DNA of 64,000 nucleotides from a virus, in the IMG/VR virus record IMGVR_UViG_3300035145_004174, positions 1-64,000 of that record, one strand, 5' to 3'. The translations under genes and the position numbers were made by a program. This document shows, piece by piece, positions 53,156 to 61,232 of this stretch. Below the pieces are notes generated by a model. That model was not told the origin of the DNA. It made no database searches and saw only the letters and a program-made list of their open reading frames with translations. Position 1 is the stretch's first letter. Every line of letters begins with the position of its first letter.

Positions 53156-54052
53156 ATGGACACGATTGTAACTATAGCAATATGCACGAGTAATAATTAT
53201 AATACCTGCGCGCGTCTATTAAATAGTCTTTTTGTACAGGATTTCAATGGTTTTAATGTTATCATACAAGATAACACTCCAGCGCATCAAAAAGATACAG
53301 GCTTCATTAAAAAACTTATAAAAGATAAACTAAATTATAAGTATATTTATAAAAATTATGGAAACTCTTGTAGTTCTAGAAATTTATGCATCAAAAAATG
53401 CAAAACTAAATACATACATTTTCTTGACGACGATGTCATTTGCCCAAAAAATTTCTGCAAAAATTTATCATCTTTTCTGTATGAATTTTCGCCTTCCGCC
53501 GTGGGTAGCAAAGTAATCCCTGACTGGAATGGCCTTCAGAGGCCAGAATGGATGTCTATTTACTGTTTGTCTTTAATGTCAATGATTGACCATGGCTCAG
53601 AGGTAATAAAGGTCGACAACAAGACAAGAAGCCCTCTTATAATAGGAGCTAGTATTTGCTTTTTAACTTCTGCTCTCAAAAAGTTTGGCGGTTTTACCGA
53701 ATCGCTAGGCAGAAATAGTTGGAACGAATCTTTAATAAGTAATGATGAAACTCAAGTTATCTCAAAAATGCTTGATTCAAACTTAGATGTTTATTATGCC
53801 CCTAATTTTCCAGTCTACCATTTGGTTCACGAGGATAGGCTAAAAAAAAGTTGGATAATAAAAAGGTCTGCTTGGCAAGCGGTTTCAGATATCATTTCTA
53901 ATGACACATCTTTTTACGAAAGTTTTAAAAAAAAATCTTTTATAGAGTCTTGTTATATATCTATTTTTACTGGCAGGCTTTCAAATATAGAAGAGCTTTC
54001 TAGAAAAGTTAGAATTTTGACATACTTCCTTCTATCTGGTATTATAAAATAA
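53156..54052 (+). CDS. Glycosyltransferase family 2
   Basis: VTIAICT, SRN, FLDDD, GGF...LGR, DETQ. Confidence 0.88.
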   Translation: MDTIVTIAICTSNNYNTCARLLNSLFVQDFNGFNVIIQDNTPAHQKDTGFIKKLIKDKLNYKYIYKNYGNSCSSRNLCIKKCKTKYIHFLDDDVICPKNFCKNLSSFLYEFSPSAVGSKVIPDWNGLQRPEWMSIYCLSLMSMIDHGSEVIKVDNKTRSPLIIGASICFLTSALKKFGGFTESLGRNSWNESLISNDETQVISKMLDSNLDVYYAPNFPVYHLVHEDRLKKSWIIKRSAWQAVSDIISNDTSFYESFKKKSFIESCYISIFTGRLSNIEELSRKVRILTYFLLSGIIK

Positions 54053-54054
54053 CT

Positions 54055-54966
54055 ATGAAAAAAAATATAATCTTATGCTTTCGTCACCAAGCGTTTTTTA
54101 ATGGTAAAATTGACTCAACTTTTTACGGTATTGGAGATATAATGAAATCATTTTTATCAGCCTACTTGTTTTGCAAGCAAAATAATTTTAATTTTTTTGT
54201 TAATTTTGACGGACATTGCCTTAAATCTTTTTTAAATTTTAAAAAAAATGATTTTAGGTTACATTTTAAAAACAAAAAAATTCCTAAAAATGTTCCCTTT
54301 ATTAAAGGCTCTGATTTTTTTGGTTATATTGAAGATTATGCGGGCAACGATGTCTTTTTAACAACTGATGGTAATAATTTATTTAATTTTCACTACGAGG
54401 ATGAAGTTTTGCATGATTTTGAGGAGACTTTCTTTTCTAGCCCTAAAATAAAAAGCATTTATGAATCTAATTTTTCAGGTTGCAAAAAAGTTTTTCATGC
54501 TAGATTGGGCGATGGGAATATGGTTTCAGATAATTTTTTGAATGATTTTTATTTAAGAGATTTTAAACATCAATATTCTTCTGCCGATTGGTATAATTCT
54601 ATAAGCTTTGACGATCTATACCCTTTTATTTTAAAGAACTTCAAAGTAGAAATAAGTTCTTGCGACTATATCTCATCTGACCATCTTTCCTTCAAGAAGT
54701 TAGTTTCTTCTAATTTTGATATTAAATTCACAGATTCTGAACCAGTTCATCTCGGCATAAAAACTCCATCTAAAAATTTGATAAGTACATTATGCGATTT
54801 ATATTCAATCTTCTATTCCGATGGGGGTGTTTCAATATCACAATATCCTTTCTCAGAAAGACCTTCGGGGTTTGTTTATTGGATAGATAAAGTATTTTTA
54901 AAAGATTATAAATATTATGCTGTAGATTGGCTTTACAAAGGTATAAAACCAATTAATTCCTTTTAG
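54055..54966 (+). CDS. Fucosyltransferase-like protein (GT11/GT23-type)
   Basis: GIGD, FHARLGD, ISSD, SGF. Confidence 0.55.
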   Translation: MKKNIILCFRHQAFFNGKIDSTFYGIGDIMKSFLSAYLFCKQNNFNFFVNFDGHCLKSFLNFKKNDFRLHFKNKKIPKNVPFIKGSDFFGYIEDYAGNDVFLTTDGNNLFNFHYEDEVLHDFEETFFSSPKIKSIYESNFSGCKKVFHARLGDGNMVSDNFLNDFYLRDFKHQYSSADWYNSISFDDLYPFILKNFKVEISSCDYISSDHLSFKKLVSSNFDIKFTDSEPVHLGIKTPSKNLISTLCDLYSIFYSDGGVSISQYPFSERPSGFVYWIDKVFLKDYKYYAVDWLYKGIKPINSF

Positions 54967-55930
54967 TTTTTTTTCTTGTTAGATGTCCCTTTATAGACCT
55001 TACTGATTTAAGCGGGACCTTTGTTGTTTTAGCTACATCTATACAAGAAGCTCCTTTTTTTAACATTCTGGTAGCTTTTTTTACATCTCTAGGTTTTTTG
55101 ATTAACCAAGATAATTTATTTTTTATTATACAGCTTGCCACCTGCTTGGTCTCAAATTTATTAGAAAACAACCTTCGATTTATTTCTTTCGGTGAAAATG
55201 TATTTGGGTTTAAATATAATGTTTTTTTTATTAATTCTTTATCTTCTTTTTTTATGAATATGTGAGATTTTTCAAAAAAATTTTTAATTGCAATTTTTCC
55301 TTGGCTTACTTTGTCGTAGGATTCGTCTTTTAATGTAGCTCCGTTGAAATAAGACCTCACATTAGCTTTAATATCTGAAAAGTATTGCGATATTCTTTGA
55401 TGCGTCAACCCCATCTGTTTAGCTACTTCTTCTCTGGTTAAGCCTTTTTCTAACAACTCAAATACTTTTTTCTCTTTTGAGTTAAGTATTGATGAATATT
55501 CTTTTATTATTTTTAGTAGAGATTCATGTTTATCTTTTTTATCAAATTCAAAATCGTCATCAATCCCCGTTGTGTTAATTATGTTTTCGTAAACACTAAT
55601 CATTTCTCCATCCTCATTGTAAACAGAACCATCAACTCTTCTTTTTACATATGATTTATTTGATTTTATTTGATGAGACCATTTTATCAAATTTCTTGCA
55701 TGCACAAATGCAGATATTTTAAAATTATTTTGATTAAATTCTCTTTCTCTTTTATTATATTCTATAATTGAATCTCTTTTTTTTATTAAATCCATATTTA
55801 TTTCGCTCACTAACTCTTCGTGAGTCATTATATGGTTCTTGTATCTATATTTTCCGATTATTTTAGCTAGGTCTTCTTGGAATAGTTCGAGCCAAGAATT
55901 ATAATTTTCAATATCTTTTTTTGTAACCAT
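54953..55930 (-). CDS. Sigma70-like factor with extra C-terminal HTH(s)
   Basis: Region-2-like FKISAFVHARNLIKW, region 4 LNSKEKKVFELLEKGLTREEVAKQMGLTHQRISQ, tail KGASCIDVAKTTKVPLKSV. Confidence 0.72.
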   Translation of the reverse strand: MVTKKDIENYNSWLELFQEDLAKIIGKYRYKNHIMTHEELVSEINMDLIKKRDSIIEYNKREREFNQNNFKISAFVHARNLIKWSHQIKSNKSYVKRRVDGSVYNEDGEMISVYENIINTTGIDDDFEFDKKDKHESLLKIIKEYSSILNSKEKKVFELLEKGLTREEVAKQMGLTHQRISQYFSDIKANVRSYFNGATLKDESYDKVSQGKIAIKNFFEKSHIFIKKEDKELIKKTLYLNPNTFSPKEINRRLFSNKFETKQVASCIIKNKLSWLIKKPRDVKKATRMLKKGASCIDVAKTTKVPLKSVRSIKGHLTRKKTKRN

Positions 55931-56963
55931 TATTTATTAAATGGAGTTTTAAATGGGCTAGGGTACTCCTTCTCCCAATTAATTTCTTGTTTGCTTTGTT
56001 GCATATATTTTTTTAATAAAGATTTTTTTATTTTTAAATAATCTGCCGCTTTAGATCTAACATTATTACAGTTATTTAAAGCATGTTTTATTATAGGTAT
56101 CCAATGTTTTAATTTTTCTTCTCTTTTTCTTGTTTTAGCTTTTTTTAAATTTTTATTTTTTTTTTCTCTTGTTCTTCTGTCAAACAGAAAGGTTTTATTC
56201 CTTGCTCTGCCCTCTTTTTCATAACTTTTTTTTGAATTTCAGACCTTTGCTCTTTAGAGATTTTAGGTAAAACTCTTTCGTAAGGAAAGTTTTCATTCCA
56301 CCAGCTCAAGGGGTGGATTCTTTTCATTACCTTGTATAACTGAGTTCTTCCCATGTTTAAAGATAATGAAGCAGCCTTTCTGTTGTTTTTAGAAATTTCT
56401 AAAGCTTCTATTATTCTTTTTTCGGTTCGGAGCATTTCTTCTTTGTCCCAATCTATCCATTTTGCCCCATTCCATTTTTTTCCAATTCTTTTTTCTATAG
56501 CTAAATGCTTTCCTTTTCTGTGTATAGTTGAATAGTTGTTTGGCCCACTCTTAAACCCTATTGTTTCCAAGTGTTCGTAGTTTGTTTTGTTGAACCTGTT
56601 AGAGTAACCTTTTGGTCTTTGGGTTTCGTATTTAAATAAAAAATCATTTTCATTTGGGTATGCACATTTCTTAATTTGATCCCAATCCTCTAAGTCTAAC
56701 CTTCTTGATATCCCTTCTCCTATTAATCTTTTATAATCTTTATGAAGCATAAAACCTTGCAAGGATTTAATCTTCACACCACCTTCAAGCAATTTACTCT
56801 TAAGGATATTTTTGGCTAAATCATAAGATTTAGATTTTATAAATGTTTTATAATCTTTTTCTGATTTATCTCGGTATATTTCTGTATAAGATATTATCCA
56901 ATATTGATCAAAATTAAAAACAGTATTCCTAAATTGTTTTTGACAATATTTACCTTTTTTCAT
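55930..56963 (-). CDS. Unknown N-terminal domain plus two Fis-like HTHs, frameshifted at an A10 tract
   Basis: Frame 0 stops at 56145; the -1 frame from 56156-56165 continues ~70 codons with IIKHALNNCNNVRSKAADYLKI to a TAA overlapping the next ATG. Confidence 0.7.
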
Positions 56964-57615
56964 TTGAAAATAACTCTTCCATTGCATTATTTCCTATAGA
57001 TATATTCTCCCAAGATTCGTCTTGAAGATAATCATCTTTTACTCTGCATCTTAATTTGTCTTCTAATCTAATTATGTTAAAGCTTACAGCTTGATGGGTA
57101 ACTCCTAAAATTTCAGATATTTCCACCTGTTTATACCCCTCTAAAATTAGGTCTATTAATTGAATTTCATTTTTAGTTAAGAATTCTGAGTAATTTTTAA
57201 TTAATTTTAAAAAATATTCATGTTTAGAGTTTTTATCAAAATCGAAATCTGATTCTATACCTTTTGTATGTTCTAAAGATTCGAATGTACTTACTTGCCC
57301 TCTATAGGTTTTTATTGAATAATCATCTCTGTTTGTGTAAAACTTTTCTTGTTTTTTTCTGCATTGATACCATCCAATTGCATTTTTTATGTAACAACAA
57401 ACTTGAAATCTAAAAGATTCGAAATTGAACTCATCAAAAAAATCATTCCTGAAGTTTATTATTGCATCTTTCTTTTTTATTAGGGCTAAATTTAAATCGC
57501 TAGCAATCTCTTCTACCGACATTAAGTGATTGTGCCTTCTTTTAGAAGCTATCAAACTTAAAATATCATTTTGAAATTCTGATAAGTACTTGTAAAATTT
57601 ATCTTCTTGGGTCAT
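56950..57615 (-). CDS. Sigma70-like factor; paralogue of 54953-55930
   Basis: NHLMSVEEIASDLNLALIKKKDAII, region 4 LTKNE...EGYKQVEISEILGVTHQAVS. Confidence 0.75.
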   Translation of the reverse strand: MTQEDKFYKYLSEFQNDILSLIASKRRHNHLMSVEEIASDLNLALIKKKDAIINFRNDFFDEFNFESFRFQVCCYIKNAIGWYQCRKKQEKFYTNRDDYSIKTYRGQVSTFESLEHTKGIESDFDFDKNSKHEYFLKLIKNYSEFLTKNEIQLIDLILEGYKQVEISEILGVTHQAVSFNIIRLEDKLRCRVKDDYLQDESWENISIGNNAMEELFSNEKR

Positions 57616-58010
57616 TATGCTTTAATTTTTTCCTCCATATTGTTTTCTTGTTCTTGCTTTACTGTTCCTATGCAATATTTGAATAAATAATCATTTTGAT
57701 TAGGAAATGAACATTCCCTAATGTGCTGCCAATCTTTTATTGATAGTGGCAATTTGTGTCTGTTCAAATAGTTTTTATAGAACATATGAAAATTTTTGAA
57801 TTTAAAATCTTTAAATGAGTTTTGCTCTTTTAATTTTTCTTTCAACACGAAGGTTGCAAACTCAAGCGATCTAGCTTTTATTACTGAAATAAACTCAAAA
57901 ACTTCTCCACTTAGAGATGTTAGTGTGTAATTTATTTTCCAATATTGGTCGTAACCAAATTTCTTTTTTCTATACTTTTCTTGAATATTTTTTTTAGTCT
58001 TCATCTTCAA
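57615..58010 (-). CDS. Hypothetical protein; paralogue of the N-terminal domain of 55930-56963
   Basis: DQYW.I.YT, IK..S...A..LK.KL, DW..I..C.(F/Y)PN.ND.LFKY shared. Confidence 0.78.
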   Translation of the reverse strand: MKMKTKKNIQEKYRKKKFGYDQYWKINYTLTSLSGEVFEFISVIKARSLEFATFVLKEKLKEQNSFKDFKFKNFHMFYKNYLNRHKLPLSIKDWQHIRECSFPNQNDYLFKYCIGTVKQEQENNMEEKIKA

Positions 58011-58239
58011 CCTTTCTATCTACTTTTTCTTTAAAGCATGGATTATTCTCGTATTCACCTACAGATCTTCCGATATTGAAGGAAAATCTGTCAATAAATA
58101 TTATTACTCCAAATAATATATATAATGCATAATTTGTCAAATCTAAATTTAACAACAATAACCCTATTACTATTACATATGGTAAATACTTATTTAATAA
58201 GTAGTCTATTACCGCCCAATTACTTTCTTTAATCTTCAT
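57994..58239 (-). CDS. Small two-TM membrane protein (possible anti-sigma)
   Basis: Two hydrophobic segments; directly downstream of the ECF sigma. Confidence 0.6.
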   Translation of the reverse strand: MKIKESNWAVIDYLLNKYLPYVIVIGLLLLNLDLTNYALYILFGVIIFIDRFSFNIGRSVGEYENNPCFKEKVDRKVEDED

Positions 58240-58801
58240 AATTTCCGTATACTTCGTATTTATTCATTTTTCTTTTTGCGCACTTTGTTAAGTTACTTCT
58301 GATCCTAAACATTGTGCCTGAGACAGCTCCAATGCTTCTTCCTGTTATTTTTGAAATTTCTTTCATGCTTTTTTCTTGCTTGAACCATAAATTAGCTATC
58401 AAGCTCATATGATCTGGCAAGTCTCTATAGCATGAATTTAAAATTTTACTTTCTAGTTTTATGTCATTTTCATTTATTTCCTGTGCTTCATCCATTATAG
58501 TTTCTACCATTTCACTGTTAAATGATAACCTATTTCTTTTTGATTTTGTTAAAAATCCCATTATTTGAAACCTAGCTATAGCGAAAACCCAATTCTTGAA
58601 CTCGCCTTTTGAGGGGTCGTAGCAATCTTGTCTTTTGAATGAGATCATATTTGTTTCTTGGAGTACATCCATAGCATCCGCTTTATTCGGTATTATTGAT
58701 AATATAAAACCAAGTAGCCTTGGTTGTAGTATTTTTAACTCGCTCTCAAAACAAAATTGTTTTGAATTCTGCTTTGTAATTTTCTTTTTTGCTTTAAACA
58801 T
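58229..58801 (-). CDS. ECF sigma-70 factor, Rhodopirellula/Verrucomicrobium (TIGR02989)-like
   Basis: QPRLLGFILSIIPN.ADA.DVLQETN, F.NW.FAIARFQ, R.SF..E.VE.I, C...LP, S.KEIS..TGRS.GAV...MFRIR..L..C. Confidence 0.85.
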   Translation of the reverse strand: MFKAKKKITKQNSKQFCFESELKILQPRLLGFILSIIPNKADAMDVLQETNMISFKRQDCYDPSKGEFKNWVFAIARFQIMGFLTKSKRNRLSFNSEMVETIMDEAQEINENDIKLESKILNSCYRDLPDHMSLIANLWFKQEKSMKEISKITGRSIGAVSGTMFRIRSNLTKCAKRKMNKYEVYGNYED

Positions 58802-59024
58802 CCTGCATCTCCCATTTCTCAGAATACGGATTATACTTTTCTACCGAAATGGTTTGTACCGTGATCTTGTTTGAATCTAACATTGCATCATGAAACTTTA
58901 TAGCTTCTTCAGCGTTATGGGCCATATAATAATGATAATTGTTCATCGCAATATGTTCGGACGATGCATTGTATTTAACTCTGAATTCAAATAATTTATC
59001 AAATTTATATTTTTTCTTCTTCAT
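58794..59024 (-). CDS. Hypothetical protein
   Basis: ORF overlapping neighbours. Confidence 0.65.
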   Translation of the reverse strand: MKKKKYKFDKLFEFRVKYNASSEHIAMNNYHYYMAHNAEEAIKFHDAMLDSNKITVQTISVEKYNPYSEKWEMQDV

Positions 59025-59193
59025 GACCTCGCCAATAAATACCATCAAGTAAAACAAAATTTATTTCATTTTCGATTTCGATATCGACACCTACTGGGTC
59101 TCCCTCTAGCACTGGAAGGTCTGATTCTACATAGAAGAATTCTTCTTCTTGTTCTGCGTGTACTAATTGGCATGATTTCATTTTAATATTCAT
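59005..59193 (-). CDS. Hypothetical acidic protein
   Basis: 62 aa ORF overlapping neighbours. Confidence 0.55.
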   Translation of the reverse strand: MNIKMKSCQLVHAEQEEEFFYVESDLPVLEGDPVGVDIEIENEINFVLLDGIYWRGHEEEKI

Positions 59194-59450
59194 ATTTTAA
59201 TTTCTAGTTGTTTTTGATTATGTTCTGATTCTAAAGCATTTTTCTGGTTAATGTCAACACTTTTTTTATTTTTTTTGAAATTCTTTTGGGCTATCCTTAC
59301 CATGAACCTCATCAAGGAGAAAGAATAAGCTTTACTGAAGCTTATGGTTTGCACCTCTTCTGTTTCTTTATTTTTGATAGTTACTCGAAATTGCTTTAGC
59401 TCAGAATCGTACTCAAATTCTCCAAATTTAAGTTCTTTTATTATTTTCAT
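59190..59450 (-). CDS. Hypothetical protein
   Basis: 86 aa ORF in operon. Confidence 0.65.
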   Translation of the reverse strand: MKIIKELKFGEFEYDSELKQFRVTIKNKETEEVQTISFSKAYSFSLMRFMVRIAQKNFKKNKKSVDINQKNALESEHNQKQLEIKI

Positions 59451-59451
59451 G

Positions 59452-60495
59452 TCAATCGATTGGAATTGTTTTAATTATTTCTCTCGCCATTGTTGGGGGA
59501 AAACATTCACCAAGAACTTTTCTAATAAAATTCTCTGATTTGTTACCTTTAAATTTGTCTAAAAATCTTTCTGGAAGTCCACAAATAATACCTAATTCTT
59601 CAACCGACAAGACTCTTGCGTCGGAATATGTTCCATCTGTTAGTTTATTTCCTGGGTGAACATTGTTTTGGCTTGAAACCGCTCCATTGCACATGGTAAC
59701 TGTTGGGGCTGGCTTGTCCCAATCTATTCTTTTGTAAGTCGTAGAGAACCCTTTTATTCTTCTTCCATCTTTTTTTGGATAATGAATTTTATTTTCAAAT
59801 GCGGTTTTCCCTGTTGGTGTGTTTTTCATCCAAACTATGTGATTAGGATTATGTTTTTTTGCGTAATGCCAAGGTAATGAGCTTTTTTCTCCAGATTCTA
59901 AGGAATCTAGATGGGATATCGCATCTTTTGTTGTTATTATTTTTTTTCTAGATTCTGGATGCTTCCATTTTCCGCCTCTAGAGATCAGCCCAATAAACCT
60001 TTTCCTTGATTGAGGTGTATTATAATTTTTTGCATTTAAAATTTTCCACCTTAGAGACCAAGGTTGGGGAAGTTTTGACTCAATATAATTTATGATGTTT
60101 ACTATGTTTCCGTCATCATTTATAAACGTCTCTGACATGCCAGATACATTTTCTATCAACATATATTCTGGTAAAATTTCATTAAACACTTCCATGGCAT
60201 GAATTATTAATGAGTTCCTGTGGTCATTTGGAGACCTTTTTGCATTAGCAACACTCATTCCTTGACAAGGTGGGGTTGCTATAATTAAATCTATTGTGTC
60301 GCAATTCTCATAAATTTGCTCTTTTATTGTTGCATTTGTTATGTCTCCGCAAATAACATTCACATCAGGATGTATCTCTCTGTACATCTTGCATCTATCT
60401 TCTTGTAGCTCGTTAGCTACAACAACATCCACTCCGAATTCCTTGAAATAAACCTCGCCAAAACCTACATTAGAAAAAAGAGATAAAGCCTTCAT
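59452..60495 (-). CDS. Orphan C5-cytosine DNA methyltransferase (HgaI-type)
   Basis: SLFS..G.GE, PPCQGMS, ENV, PQ.RKR, SSQNNVHPG..DGTYSDARVLS. Confidence 0.92.
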   Translation of the reverse strand: MKALSLFSNVGFGEVYFKEFGVDVVVANELQEDRCKMYREIHPDVNVICGDITNATIKEQIYENCDTIDLIIATPPCQGMSVANAKRSPNDHRNSLIIHAMEVFNEILPEYMLIENVSGMSETFINDDGNIVNIINYIESKLPQPWSLRWKILNAKNYNTPQSRKRFIGLISRGGKWKHPESRKKIITTKDAISHLDSLESGEKSSLPWHYAKKHNPNHIVWMKNTPTGKTAFENKIHYPKKDGRRIKGFSTTYKRIDWDKPAPTVTMCNGAVSSQNNVHPGNKLTDGTYSDARVLSVEELGIICGLPERFLDKFKGNKSENFIRKVLGECFPPTMAREIIKTIPID

Positions 60496-60581
60496 TCTGT
60501 ATTATAATAATATTATTAACAAGAATATCAACTCAAAAAGTGTATTTATAATTTAGTTGAATTTTTAATATATTATAAGCG

Positions 60582-61232
60582 ATGAAAAACTCTAAAGTAA
60601 TAACATGTATAGGGAATTGCCAAGCCCTTAGTTTGACTTGGTATTTGTCTCAATTGGGTCCAGAATTTGATGTTTCCTATGTGAGTCCTTCTATGAAGCT
60701 CCAGAATTTGATTATTGGAGATTCTGTCGAGGAGGCTCCATCGGCTCCTAATTATGCATTAGACGATTCCAAACACGACGAAATAAAACCATGGGCAGGG
60801 AAGCTCATTAAAAGGGCAAAAAACCCATCTATGGGGGTCGATATGGTCAAAAAATCAGATCTAGTTTTTTATCAGACAATTAGATTGGAAACATCTAAAC
60901 TTTTCAACCTTGCAAAATTGCGAAGCTATGTTGATGTTTCTAAATTAAAACAAATTGGAGTGTTTCATTATAATCCCAATGACCCTTTTATTGAATCTGG
61001 TTTTGTGGGAATGATGGAAAGAGAAAAAAGACATAAGATAGAATTTTCGATTTGTGAATTGATTTACAAGCACCGAGATAAAATTTACTGCCAACCAGGA
61101 AACCGCAGGCATCCAAATTCTTTTTATTTTTTAGAATTAGTGAGGTCTATTTGTGAAAAAATGGAATGGGATTTTTATGATGAATCTACTTATATGGAAA
61201 TTCTTGAACAAAAATGGCCATTTAAATGTTAG
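60582..61232 (+). CDS. WcbI-like polysaccharide biosynthesis/acetylation protein
   Basis: IGNCQA..L N-terminus and C-terminal HPN. Confidence 0.6.
   Translation: MKNSKVITCIGNCQALSLTWYLSQLGPEFDVSYVSPSMKLQNLIIGDSVEEAPSAPNYALDDSKHDEIKPWAGKLIKRAKNPSMGVDMVKKSDLVFYQTIRLETSKLFNLAKLRSYVDVSKLKQIGVFHYNPNDPFIESGFVGMMEREKRHKIEFSICELIYKHRDKIYCQPGNRRHPNSFYFLELVRSICEKMEWDFYDESTYMEILEQKWPFKC

What the first reader, a model, noticed from the sequence alone, without database searches (positions are those of the whole stretch)
54953..58801. Three-sigma operon built from a duplicated [unknown domain]-[sigma-like] module
Seen: a translationally coupled minus-strand run reads ECF sigma (58229) > 2-TM protein > X1 (57615) > sigma-like A (56950) > X2 with two Fis-like HTHs (55930-56963) > sigma-like B with extra HTHs (54953). 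X1 and X2 share DQYW.I.YT...DW..I..C.(F/Y)PN.ND.LFKY. Sigma A and B share FQ.D...I...R..NH.M..EE..S..N..LIKK.D.II and DF.FDK..KHE..LK.IK.YS..L. In the second copy both partners gained DNA-binding extensions. Known: phages such as T4 (gp55/gp33) and SPO1 (gp28, gp33/34) use sigma plus co-factor pairs. Inference: X is a dedicated co-activator or anti-sigma of a divergent sigma family, forming a multi-tier transcription cascade that I do not recognise as described.
Basis: partly seen in the sequence, partly recalled or inferred. Interest (0 to 1): 0.8.

Follow-up and report, generated by a model that had tools for sequence, protein, structure and literature searches.

The report
Phage sigma factors with docking partners
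An uncultured marine phage carries one operon with an ordinary ECF sigma factor and two very divergent ones, each preceded by a gene for a small undescribed domain that is predicted to dock onto an extra helix at the sigma's end, which would be a new way to build a two-part promoter-recognition factor.

Summary
On the minus strand, 54953-58801 encodes ECF sigma, a 2-TM protein, X1, sigma A, X2 and sigma B, with overlapping stops and starts. X1/X2 (35% identity, E 3e-18) and sigma A/B (34%, E 1e-31) are true paralogues.

- **Sigma A/B:** they are very divergent ECF-like sigma factors, not plain LuxR regulators. A profile comparison matches the ECF family over the full length. The AlphaFold model has a sigma-2 domain (Z 9.6) and a sigma-4 domain (Z 10.2).
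- **X:** it is a confidently folded alpha/beta domain with no clear structural relative. Only 79 clusters exist among 1.84 billion proteins. Most members carry Fis-type HTHs after X.
- **Linkage:** searching from X, all 25 assessable X genes in 18 distinct viral contigs sit directly upstream of a sigma A/B-type gene.
- **Binding:** a complex prediction (0.72 against 0.00 for controls) docks X1 on a conserved helix behind sigma-4. This favours a sigma-tethered co-factor over an anti-sigma.
- **X2:** it needs a -1 shift at an A10 tract to reach its second HTH and its coupling to sigma B.

A transcription cascade and the target promoters are not shown. This scan already reported the same module in related phage genomes (e1-5344676, e1-5747575, e1-5698427, e1-5814138).

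The parts
58229..58801 (-). Canonical ECF (group 4) sigma factor, 190 aa
   Evidence: Pfam Sigma70_r2 E 7.2e-11, 42.2 bits, above the cut-off of 24. NCBIfam TIGR02937 65 bits, above 42.9. The best subfamily is TIGR02989 (Rhodopirellula/Verrucomicrobium type) at 97.5 bits, below its cut-off of 124.55. phrog_1740 sigma factor E 2.4e-16.
57994..58239 (-). Small protein with two predicted membrane helices, 81 aa, of unknown role; it overlaps the ECF stop by 11 nt
   Evidence: No family match. It is conserved at 45-63% identity directly upstream of X1 in related contigs, including those where the ECF gene lies elsewhere.
57615..58010 (-). X1: a stand-alone X domain (131 aa from TTG 58010; public gene calls start at ATG 58004, 129 aa)
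   Evidence: AF2 pLDDT 85.3, pTM 0.76. No Pfam, PHROG or NCBIfam family. The family profile finds 79 clusters in 1.84 billion proteins. P0021 is 129 aa and 100% identical.
56950..57615 (-). Sigma A: divergent ECF-like sigma (221 aa) with sigma-2 (about residues 1-96), a linker, sigma-4 (about 127-192) and a tail helix
   Evidence: hhalign vs the ECF family: probability 95.5%, E 1.4e-8 over 158 columns. TIGR02937 E 4.8e-7 over 13-189, below cut-off. The Foldseek top 50 are all sigma factors. VIA gives Z 9.6 for sigma-2 and Z 10.2 for sigma-4. Pfam GerE 25 bits, above 23.5.
56953..57021 (-). Conserved C-terminal tail helix of sigma A (residues 199-221, motif D-E-S-W..I..G..A...L-F), the predicted docking site for X
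   Evidence: The motif is kept in 32 of the 33 family members aligned; one row (P0016) ends before it. It forms the whole sigma side of the predicted interface (residues 201, 204-205, 207-221).
56145..56987 (-). X2, frame-0 product (280 aa): X domain plus one Fis-type HTH
   Evidence: 35% identical to X1. Pfam HTH_8 E 4.9e-5, 23.4 bits, above 22.
56156..56165 (-). A10 tract, the probable site of a -1 shift (ribosomal or transcriptional slippage)
   Evidence: Read directly. An A10 tract with the same -1 arrangement is present in the relative L001 (7430-7439). Orthologues in L003, L004, L005, L007, L010 and L011 are single ORFs of 345-373 aa.
55928..56165 (-). X2 extension in the -1 frame: a second Fis-type HTH, ending in a TAATG overlap with the sigma B start
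   Evidence: The frame is open with no start codon of its own. HTH_8 E 9e-4, 19.4 bits, below the cut-off of 22. It is 55% identical to the equivalent open frame of L001. The uninterrupted orthologue in L003 has two HTH_8 stretches (E 9.4e-11).
54953..55930 (-). Sigma B: paralogue of sigma A (325 aa) with the same sigma-2, sigma-4 and tail helix, plus about 100 further residues
   Evidence: 34% identical to sigma A. TIGR02937 E 6.4e-10, 38.9 bits, over 14-193, just under the cut-off of 42.9. phrog_351 sigma factor E 3.5e-10 over 97-321. Tail motif D-E-S-Y..V..G..A...F-F.

Best explanation
Sigma A and sigma B are very divergent ECF-like sigma factors, each with sigma-2, sigma-4 and a family-specific C-terminal helix. 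The phage uses them, together with an ordinary ECF sigma, to redirect the host RNA polymerase. No phage polymerase was found in the 101-kb record. X is a dedicated sigma-binding domain that docks on the helix behind sigma-4. In its commonest form X is followed by one to three Fis-type HTHs. The X-HTH protein (here X2) would then be a DNA-binding subunit tethered to the sigma, positioned to read DNA upstream of the -35 region. X-HTH plus sigma would form a two-part promoter-specificity factor. The pair was duplicated in tandem in this lineage. X1 lost its HTHs and may only cap or stabilise sigma A, while sigma B added a C-terminal extension. X2 is made in a short one-HTH form, and in a long two-HTH form after a -1 slip at an A10 tract. 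Only the long form ends in a stop-start overlap with sigma B. Shown here: paralogy, the sigma fold, conserved adjacency and the domain fusions. Predicted: the X-sigma contact. Inferred: co-activation, use of the host polymerase and the roles of the two X2 forms.
For: Paralogy is established.

Sigma identity of A and B:
- hhalign to the neighbouring ECF family gives probability 95.5%, E 1.4e-8, matching residues 6-193 to 17-180.
- TIGR02937 covers nearly its whole profile in both proteins (E 4.8e-7 and 6.4e-10).
- The Foldseek top 50 are all sigma factors.
- The sigma-2 domain matches 5uxx_C at Z 9.6 (rmsd 3.4, 84 aa) and 1h3l at Z 8.6. The sigma-4 domain matches 3mzy at Z 10.2 (rmsd 1.7, 66 aa).

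X as a partner:
- The synteny is kept in 11 sigma-seeded loci.
- In X-seeded loci, 25 of 25 assessable X genes lie directly upstream of a sigma A/B-type gene, in 18 distinct contigs of which 9 are new. One further pair sits in a MAG contig.
- The complex prediction scores ipSAE 0.72 (runs 0.67, 0.72, 0.72) against a best control of 0.00. That mark was reached by 58 of 80 solved complexes and 2 of 110 mismatched pairs. The runs share at least 46% of contacts and the partner pLDDT is at least 77. No similar solved complex exists for X.
- The sigma side of the interface is the tail helix, conserved across the family. The X side lies in its best-conserved segment, residues 92-116.

X as a DNA-tethering module: 8 of the 10 longer X-family proteins scanned carry HTH_8 after or before X. 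X sits at the N-terminus in nearly all of the 79 clusters.

Host polymerase: no RNAP beta or T7-type polymerase was found in the record. TTGACA is 4.8-fold enriched upstream of genes.
Against: - Sigma A and B fall below the curated cut-offs of every sigma model. The only family match above cut-off for sigma A is GerE/LuxR.
- Core binding and promoter melting are untested.
- The X-sigma contact is a prediction only. Inter-protein covariation over 28 pairs gave no enrichment of tail columns (15 of the top 160 pairs against 20 expected).
- Only 4 of the 20 invariant or nearly invariant X columns are themselves predicted contacts.
- No promoter motif attributable to these sigmas was found.
- X1 has no DNA-binding part, so the co-activator model does not explain it directly.
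- A divergent third X gene is not next to a sigma gene.
Confidence: 0.55

Rival explanations
1. X is an anti-sigma factor. It holds its cognate sigma inactive until a signal releases it, possibly relayed by the 2-TM protein. The X-sigma pairs would then be classical sigma/anti-sigma pairs.
For: The genes are strictly adjacent and translationally coupled, as in sigma/anti-sigma operons. Binding is predicted. X1 has no DNA-binding part. A conserved small membrane protein sits just upstream of X1.
Against: The predicted contact is confined to the helix after sigma-4. It leaves the sigma-2 and sigma-4 surfaces free, whereas known anti-sigmas occlude them (own knowledge of RseA, RsrA and FlgM complexes). 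Most X proteins carry Fis-type DNA-binding domains, which is atypical for anti-sigmas. X precedes the sigma gene instead of following it.
Confidence: 0.2
2. Sigma A and B are not initiation factors. They are LuxR/GerE-type DNA-binding regulators whose helical N-terminal domain only resembles sigma-2. X-HTH proteins are ordinary co-regulators that form heteromeric repressor or activator complexes with them.
For: GerE is the only Pfam family above cut-off for sigma A. A PDB sequence-profile search finds only LuxR-type HTH proteins, and only for the C-terminal part. One public source names relatives 'CsgD family transcriptional regulator'. All sigma models score below their cut-offs.
Against: The profile-profile match to a bona fide ECF family runs through both domains in the right order. 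TIGR02937 aligns over nearly its whole length. The N-terminal domain matches solved sigma-2 domains at Z 7.3-9.6, and whole-chain Foldseek hits are exclusively sigma factors. The family's ECF HMM hits sigma A at E 1e-4 across both domains.
Confidence: 0.15
3. The module is real, but the pairing reflects only co-expression. X acts on another target, such as host RNA polymerase directly, in the manner of T7 Gp2 or the Bacillus epsilon subunit.
For: The X model has weak fold similarity to the B. subtilis RNAP epsilon subunit (6wvk_E, Z 4.4) and to T7 Gp2 (Z 2.8-2.9). A divergent X copy occurs away from any sigma gene.
Against: Those Z-scores are within the noise for this search: the best hit overall is Z 7.0, to a ribosomal protein. 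The complex prediction with controls favours direct sigma binding. Adjacency is 25 of 25.
Confidence: 0.1

Closest known systems
T4 MotA (with AsiA), sigma appropriation at middle promoters (PMC6755090)
   Same: It is a phage activator built of a sigma-binding domain plus a DNA-binding domain. The sigma-binding domain grips the last helix of sigma region 4, and the DNA-binding domain reads an upstream element. X2 (X plus Fis HTHs) docking on the helix behind sigma-4 would work the same way.
   Different: MotA acts on the host sigma-70 and needs AsiA to remodel region 4. Here the target is the phage's own divergent sigma, with a dedicated extra helix. X showed no detectable similarity to MotA in sequence or fold searches. 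The DNA-binding part here is a Fis-type HTH, not a double-wing domain.
phiEco32 gp36 (ECF-like phage sigma) with gp79 (PMC12276001; PDB 9m7y)
   Same: A phage-encoded ECF-like sigma works with a small phage protein that binds it and stabilises the open complex. The sigma A model aligns to chain 9m7y_F of that complex, a sigma-type chain (Z 6.7; Foldseek E 0.059).
   Different: Gp79 binds the polymerase and invades the RNA channel with its N-terminus, and it is not a DNA-binding protein. No sequence relation to X was found. The genes are not arranged as a duplicated coupled pair.
ECF sigma factors with regulatory C-terminal extensions (ECF41, 42, 238, 29 and others; PMC7826278)
   Same: These are group-4 sigmas that carry an extra segment after sigma-4 which modulates activity. 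Short extensions of 20-30 aa are known.
   Different: Those extensions act in cis on the sigma core or sense metals. Here the helix is predicted to recruit a separate protein. That paper states that phage and very divergent ECFs were not captured by the classification.
Two-subunit sigma factors: B. subtilis SigO-RsoA, SPO1 gp33/gp34, T4 gp55/gp33 (own knowledge; SigO-RsoA cited in PMC7826278)
   Same: Promoter specificity is split between two co-encoded polypeptides.
   Different: In those systems the second subunit supplies or replaces a sigma region (region 2.3-like in RsoA, a flap-binding sigma-4 surrogate in gp33). Sigma A and B already have both sigma-2 and sigma-4, and X adds something extra.

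Membership tests
Sigma-70 family, group 4 (ECF) - for sigma A and sigma B | Sigma-2 domain (regions 2.1-2.4) | tested here: met
   This is met at fold and profile level only. The N-terminal domain (residues 1-96) matches ECF sigma-2 structures: 5uxx_C Z 9.6, 1h3l Z 8.6, 2o7g Z 7.5, 2mao Z 7.3. hhalign aligns it to region 2 of the ECF family. Pfam Sigma70_r2 is not detected at E<=1.
Sigma-70 family, group 4 (ECF) - for sigma A and sigma B | Sigma-4 domain with an HTH for the -35 element | tested here: met
   3mzy Z 10.2, 3vep Z 8.9 and 2h27 Z 8.1 over residues 127-197. Sigma70_r4 and r4_2 are weak hits, and the related GerE family is above cut-off.
Sigma-70 family, group 4 (ECF) - for sigma A and sigma B | Two-domain architecture without regions 1.1 and 3 | tested here: met
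   Sigma A is 221 aa. About 30 poorly ordered linker residues lie between the two domains. The TIGR02937 alignment covers profile positions 9-162 of 165.
Sigma-70 family, group 4 (ECF) - for sigma A and sigma B | Score above the curated family threshold | tested here: not met
   TIGR02937 scores 29.5 bits (sigma A) and 38.9 bits (sigma B) against a cut-off of 42.9. These proteins are best called a divergent ECF-like subfamily.
Sigma-70 family, group 4 (ECF) - for sigma A and sigma B | Binds RNAP core and directs promoter-specific initiation | not testable with these tools
   This needs biochemistry.
LuxR/GerE-type transcription regulators | GerE HTH joined to a receiver, autoinducer-binding or other sensor domain | tested here: not met
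   The GerE HTH is present (25 bits), but the N-terminal domain matches sigma-2 structures and no sensor domain.
Class I anti-sigma factors (ASD fold) - for X | Helical anti-sigma domain that contacts both sigma-2 and sigma-4 | tested here: inconclusive
   The X model is a mixed alpha/beta domain. No anti-sigma appears in the fold searches. The predicted contact is limited to the tail helix. These are predictions only.
T4 MotA family - for X2 | Homology to the MotA N-terminal and C-terminal domains | tested here: inconclusive
   MotA does not appear in the sequence or fold searches. The resemblance is functional, not familial.
Fis/NtrC-type HTH (Pfam HTH_8) - C-terminal part of X2 | HTH_8 profile match above cut-off | tested here: met
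   The first HTH scores 23.4 bits, above 22. The second, in the -1 frame, scores 19.4 bits, below cut-off. The uninterrupted orthologue L003 scores 41.7 bits with two stretches.

The most novel reading that the evidence does not exclude
X plus sigma A/B is a previously undescribed kind of two-subunit promoter-specificity factor. A phage-only sigma subfamily evolved a docking helix behind sigma-4. That helix permanently recruits an exchangeable DNA-reading subunit (X fused to Fis HTHs, or to other repeats), which extends promoter recognition upstream of -35. In this lineage, programmed -1 slippage at an A10 tract sets the ratio of one-HTH to two-HTH forms of X2 and gates translational coupling to sigma B.
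Probability: 0.35. Interest if true: 0.8.

Novelty: new variant of a known kind. Interest (0 to 1): 0.66.

Why it matters
Phage control of host RNA polymerase has repeatedly revealed new principles of transcription initiation, as with AsiA/MotA, gp55/gp33 and gp79. This case offers a sigma subfamily with a built-in docking helix and a dedicated, modular partner domain unknown to any database. It is conserved across a group of large, uncultured marine phages found in seawater, estuary and wetland metagenomes. If the model holds, it gives a compact, orthogonal sigma-plus-adaptor pair of interest for synthetic circuits. It also shows how promoter recognition can be extended by a tethered DNA-binding subunit. 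The proposal can be tested directly with four small recombinant proteins.

Tried and rejected
- **The look-up of encoding contigs:** Context came from IMG/VR loci instead.
- **Isolate phages:** DNA and protein searches of 50,697 GenBank phage records found no relative of the operon, of sigma A or of X2.
- **X fold:**
  - Foldseek against PDB and BFVD gave nothing at E<=0.001.
  - The wide VIA search gave a best Z of 7.0, to ribosomal protein eL20/LX, which is within the background for that search.
  - The ESM Atlas gave only unnamed viral clusters scoring 0.81-0.83, which is the chance range.
  - A PDB sequence-profile search gave no hit at E<=10.
- **Covariation:** analysis of 28 X-sigma pairs showed no enrichment of tail columns among top-scoring pairs. 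One predicted contact, X residue 43 with sigma residue 215, changes together (V/I with L, F with F). This follows the paralogue split and may be a single event.
- **Promoter hunting:**
  - k-mer enrichment recovered only host-type TTGACA.
  - The GTGTATA motif has just 3 intergenic copies.
  - ECF-type AAC-N16/17-CGT patterns are rarer than in shuffled sequence.
  - The consensus promoter scan of 54000-61000 equals the shuffle expectation, 37 against 35.3.
- **Sequencing runs:** no RNA holder was listed. Contigs from four independent DNA runs break at, or skip, 56107-56178. The length of the A tract could therefore not be checked in independent data.

Full report
**Context.** The window is the first 64 kb of a 101-kb IMG/VR virus record estimated to be 73% complete, with about 31% G+C.
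- The plus-strand part of the window encodes replication and nucleotide-metabolism genes: the ribonucleotide reductase large subunit, a DnaB-like helicase, a DnaE-type polymerase and a Clp-like ATPase.
- The finding lies in a minus-strand block that starts at a DNA methyltransferase gene (59452-60495) and ends convergently against a plus-strand gene at 54966.

**Observation.**
- One search confirms six consecutive minus-strand frames with overlapping or abutting ends: ECF sigma, a 2-TM protein, X1, sigma A, X2 and sigma B.
- X1 and X2 share 35% identity over 113 residues (E 3e-18).
- Sigma A and B share 34% over 208 residues (E 1e-31).
- X2 needs one correction. Frame 0 stops at 56145. The second Fis-like HTH sits in the -1 frame, which has no start codon and follows an A10 tract at 56156-56165. 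It ends in a TAATG overlap with the sigma B start.

**What sigma A and B are.**
- At the level of single-family HMMs they look like LuxR/GerE HTH proteins.
- Several independent tests show a complete ECF-like architecture.
  - A profile of 33 family members aligns to the profile of the neighbouring ECF family over 158 columns spanning both domains (probability 95.5%, E 1.4e-8).
  - NCBIfam's sigma70-ECF superfamily model aligns nearly end to end with both proteins (E 4.8e-7 and 6.4e-10). Both scores are below its cut-off.
  - The ECF family HMM finds sigma A in the genome at E 1e-4.
  - An AlphaFold model (N-terminal domain pLDDT about 90) has only sigma factors among its 50 best Foldseek matches.
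  - The Foldseek-independent search matches residues 1-96 to solved sigma-2 domains (Z 9.6, 8.6, 7.5, 7.3). It matches residues 127-192 to sigma-4 domains (Z 10.2, 8.9, 8.8).
- After sigma-4 the model shows a further helix (residues 200-217). Its motif, D-E-S-W/Y..I/V..G..A...L/F-F, is kept in 32 of the 33 aligned family members. One row ends before it.

**What X is.**
- X folds confidently (pLDDT 85.3, pTM 0.76) as helix, two strands, helix, strand, helix, strand.
- No search gives a convincing relative.
- A profile search of 1.84 billion representative proteins finds only 79 clusters. X is nearly always at the N-terminus, and lengths fall into a class of about 110-150 aa and a class of about 230-420 aa.
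- Eight of the ten longer members scanned carry Fis-type HTH_8 domains, some with further HTHs.
- A third, divergent X gene lies outside the window at genome position 68315-68824. There X is followed by short G-(R/T)-F repeats instead of HTHs, and it is not next to a sigma gene.

**Linkage.**
- Eleven IMG/VR loci seeded with the sigma family show the same gene order. Variants are a single X-HTH plus sigma module behind ECF and the TM protein, an ECF gene moved to between sigma A and X2, and X2-sigma B type pairs alone.
- The unbiased direction was also tested. Nineteen loci seeded with X contain 25 full-length X genes whose downstream neighbour can be seen, in 18 distinct sequences of which 9 contigs are new. 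All 25 are followed directly by a sigma A/B-type gene.
- A scan of 185,579 prokaryote species genomes found one more X-sigma pair, on a 47-kb contig binned into a Halobacteriovorax MAG.
- The second refutation criterion, X not being linked to sigma elsewhere, is therefore also not met.

**Predicted contact.**
- The single complex job (sigma A with X1, each with its own alignment) scored 0.72 in its best run (runs 0.67, 0.72, 0.72). All three controls scored 0.00.
- That mark was reached by 58 of 80 solved complexes and 2 of 110 mismatched pairs. These counts hold only roughly because my own alignments were used.
- The runs share at least 46% of contacts, and the partner pLDDT is at least 77.
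- X has no solved relative, so the pass is unlikely to come from memory of a known complex.
- The interface is the sigma tail helix (residues 201, 204-205, 207-221) against X residues 41, 43, 83-84, 92-100 and 104-116. The X side lies in the conserved segment with motif DW..I..C.FPN.N..LFK.
- Two cautions apply. Only 4 of X's 20 invariant or nearly invariant columns are themselves predicted contacts. A covariation analysis of 28 pairs gave no enrichment for the tail.

**Mechanism.**
- The contact leaves the core-binding faces of sigma-2 and sigma-4 free, and most X proteins carry DNA-binding HTHs. The best reading is therefore a sigma-tethered DNA-binding co-factor.
- This is functionally like T4 MotA, whose N-terminal domain grips the last helix of sigma-70 region 4 while its C-terminal domain binds DNA (PMC6755090). 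It is also like the sigma/partner pair gp36/gp79 of phiEco32 (PMC12276001).
- An anti-sigma role, especially for the HTH-less X1, remains possible.
- Single-module relatives have X fused to HTH, so X1 probably lost its HTHs after the tandem duplication.
- No phage RNA polymerase was detected in the record. TTGACA-type promoters with upstream A-tracts precede many genes, mostly between 76 and 100 kb. The phage therefore depends on a host polymerase with a canonical sigma-70.
- The three sigma genes sit in one coupled run, which does not by itself make a cascade. No promoter class for them could be defined.

**The frameshift in X2.**
- The closest relative (L001/L002; 60% identical in the frame-0 part of X2, 65% in sigma A) has an A10 tract at the same place, with the same -1 relation between the two parts.
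- The -1 frame is open and 55% identical between the two phages.
- Six more distant orthologues are uninterrupted ORFs of 345-373 aa.
- An inherited, selectively maintained recoding site is more likely than an assembly error.
- Independent read or contig data could not settle the tract length.

**Relation to earlier scan notes.**
- The same module was reported by this scan in related phage genomes (e1-5344676, e1-5747575, e1-5698427, e1-5814138), with the same reading. My results agree.
- Those notes are AI notes on homologous DNA and are not independent evidence.
- Notes on this genome flagged the frameshift (e1-6071808), the third X gene (e1-6071809) and the PVC-like ECF (e1-6071810). I checked each one (51 and 53; 67).

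**Verdict.** This is a new variant of a known kind of system, a phage sigma factor with a dedicated partner. It involves an undescribed partner domain and an undescribed docking mode, and no biochemistry exists yet.

Noticed in passing
window 55928-56165 (-); L001:7402-7659: X2 needs a -1 shift at an A10 tract to include its second Fis-type HTH. The same A10 tract and shift occur in the nearest relative, and the shifted frame is 55% identical there. Six more distant orthologues are in frame. This is a probable programmed slippage site.
   Followed up: partly
L014:4315-4824 (genome 68315-68824, +), outside the window: A third, divergent X-domain gene (hmmsearch E 1.3e-9). X is followed by three short G-(R/T)-F repeats instead of HTHs, and the gene is not adjacent to a sigma gene. 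Similar divergent copies lie about 3.4 kb upstream of the module in L018, L019, L022 and L024.
   Followed up: partly
genome 76-100 kb (outside the window); also window 53156 upstream: TTGACA is 4.8-fold enriched in upstream regions (16 of 70). It usually follows an A-rich tract and is spaced about 17 nt from a TAnnnT box. This looks like a block of host sigma-70-type early promoters, which argues for a host with canonical -35/-10 recognition.
   Followed up: partly
L035 (PBIO01000024.1, Halobacteriovorax sp. MAG contig, 47 kb): This is the only hit for X among 185,579 prokaryote species genomes. It is an X(2xHTH-length)-sigma pair on a 41% G+C contig binned with a marine predatory bacterium. 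It could be a host lead or a mis-binned phage contig.
   Followed up: no
window 58229-58801 (-): The best subfamily match of the ECF sigma is TIGR02989 (Rhodopirellula/Verrucomicrobium type) at 97.5 bits, below its cut-off of 124.55. The PVC-host idea noted earlier is therefore only weakly supported.
   Followed up: partly
L005:7693-9324, L007:8321-9916: Sigma B orthologues in some relatives are 530-545 aa, with further GerE/sigma-4-like HTHs after the tail helix. This lineage keeps adding DNA-binding modules to both partners.
   Followed up: no
L006:6860-7354, L007:6797-7300, L019, L024, L030: In several relatives the ECF sigma gene sits between sigma A and X2 rather than at the head of the operon, while the 2-TM gene stays upstream of X1. 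The membrane protein is thus linked to X1 more tightly than to the ECF sigma.
   Followed up: no
genome about 97040-97115 (+), outside the window: A tRNA-like sequence with a CAT anticodon loop, read by eye in the region upstream of the ORF starting at 97119. It was not checked with ARAGORN.
   Followed up: no
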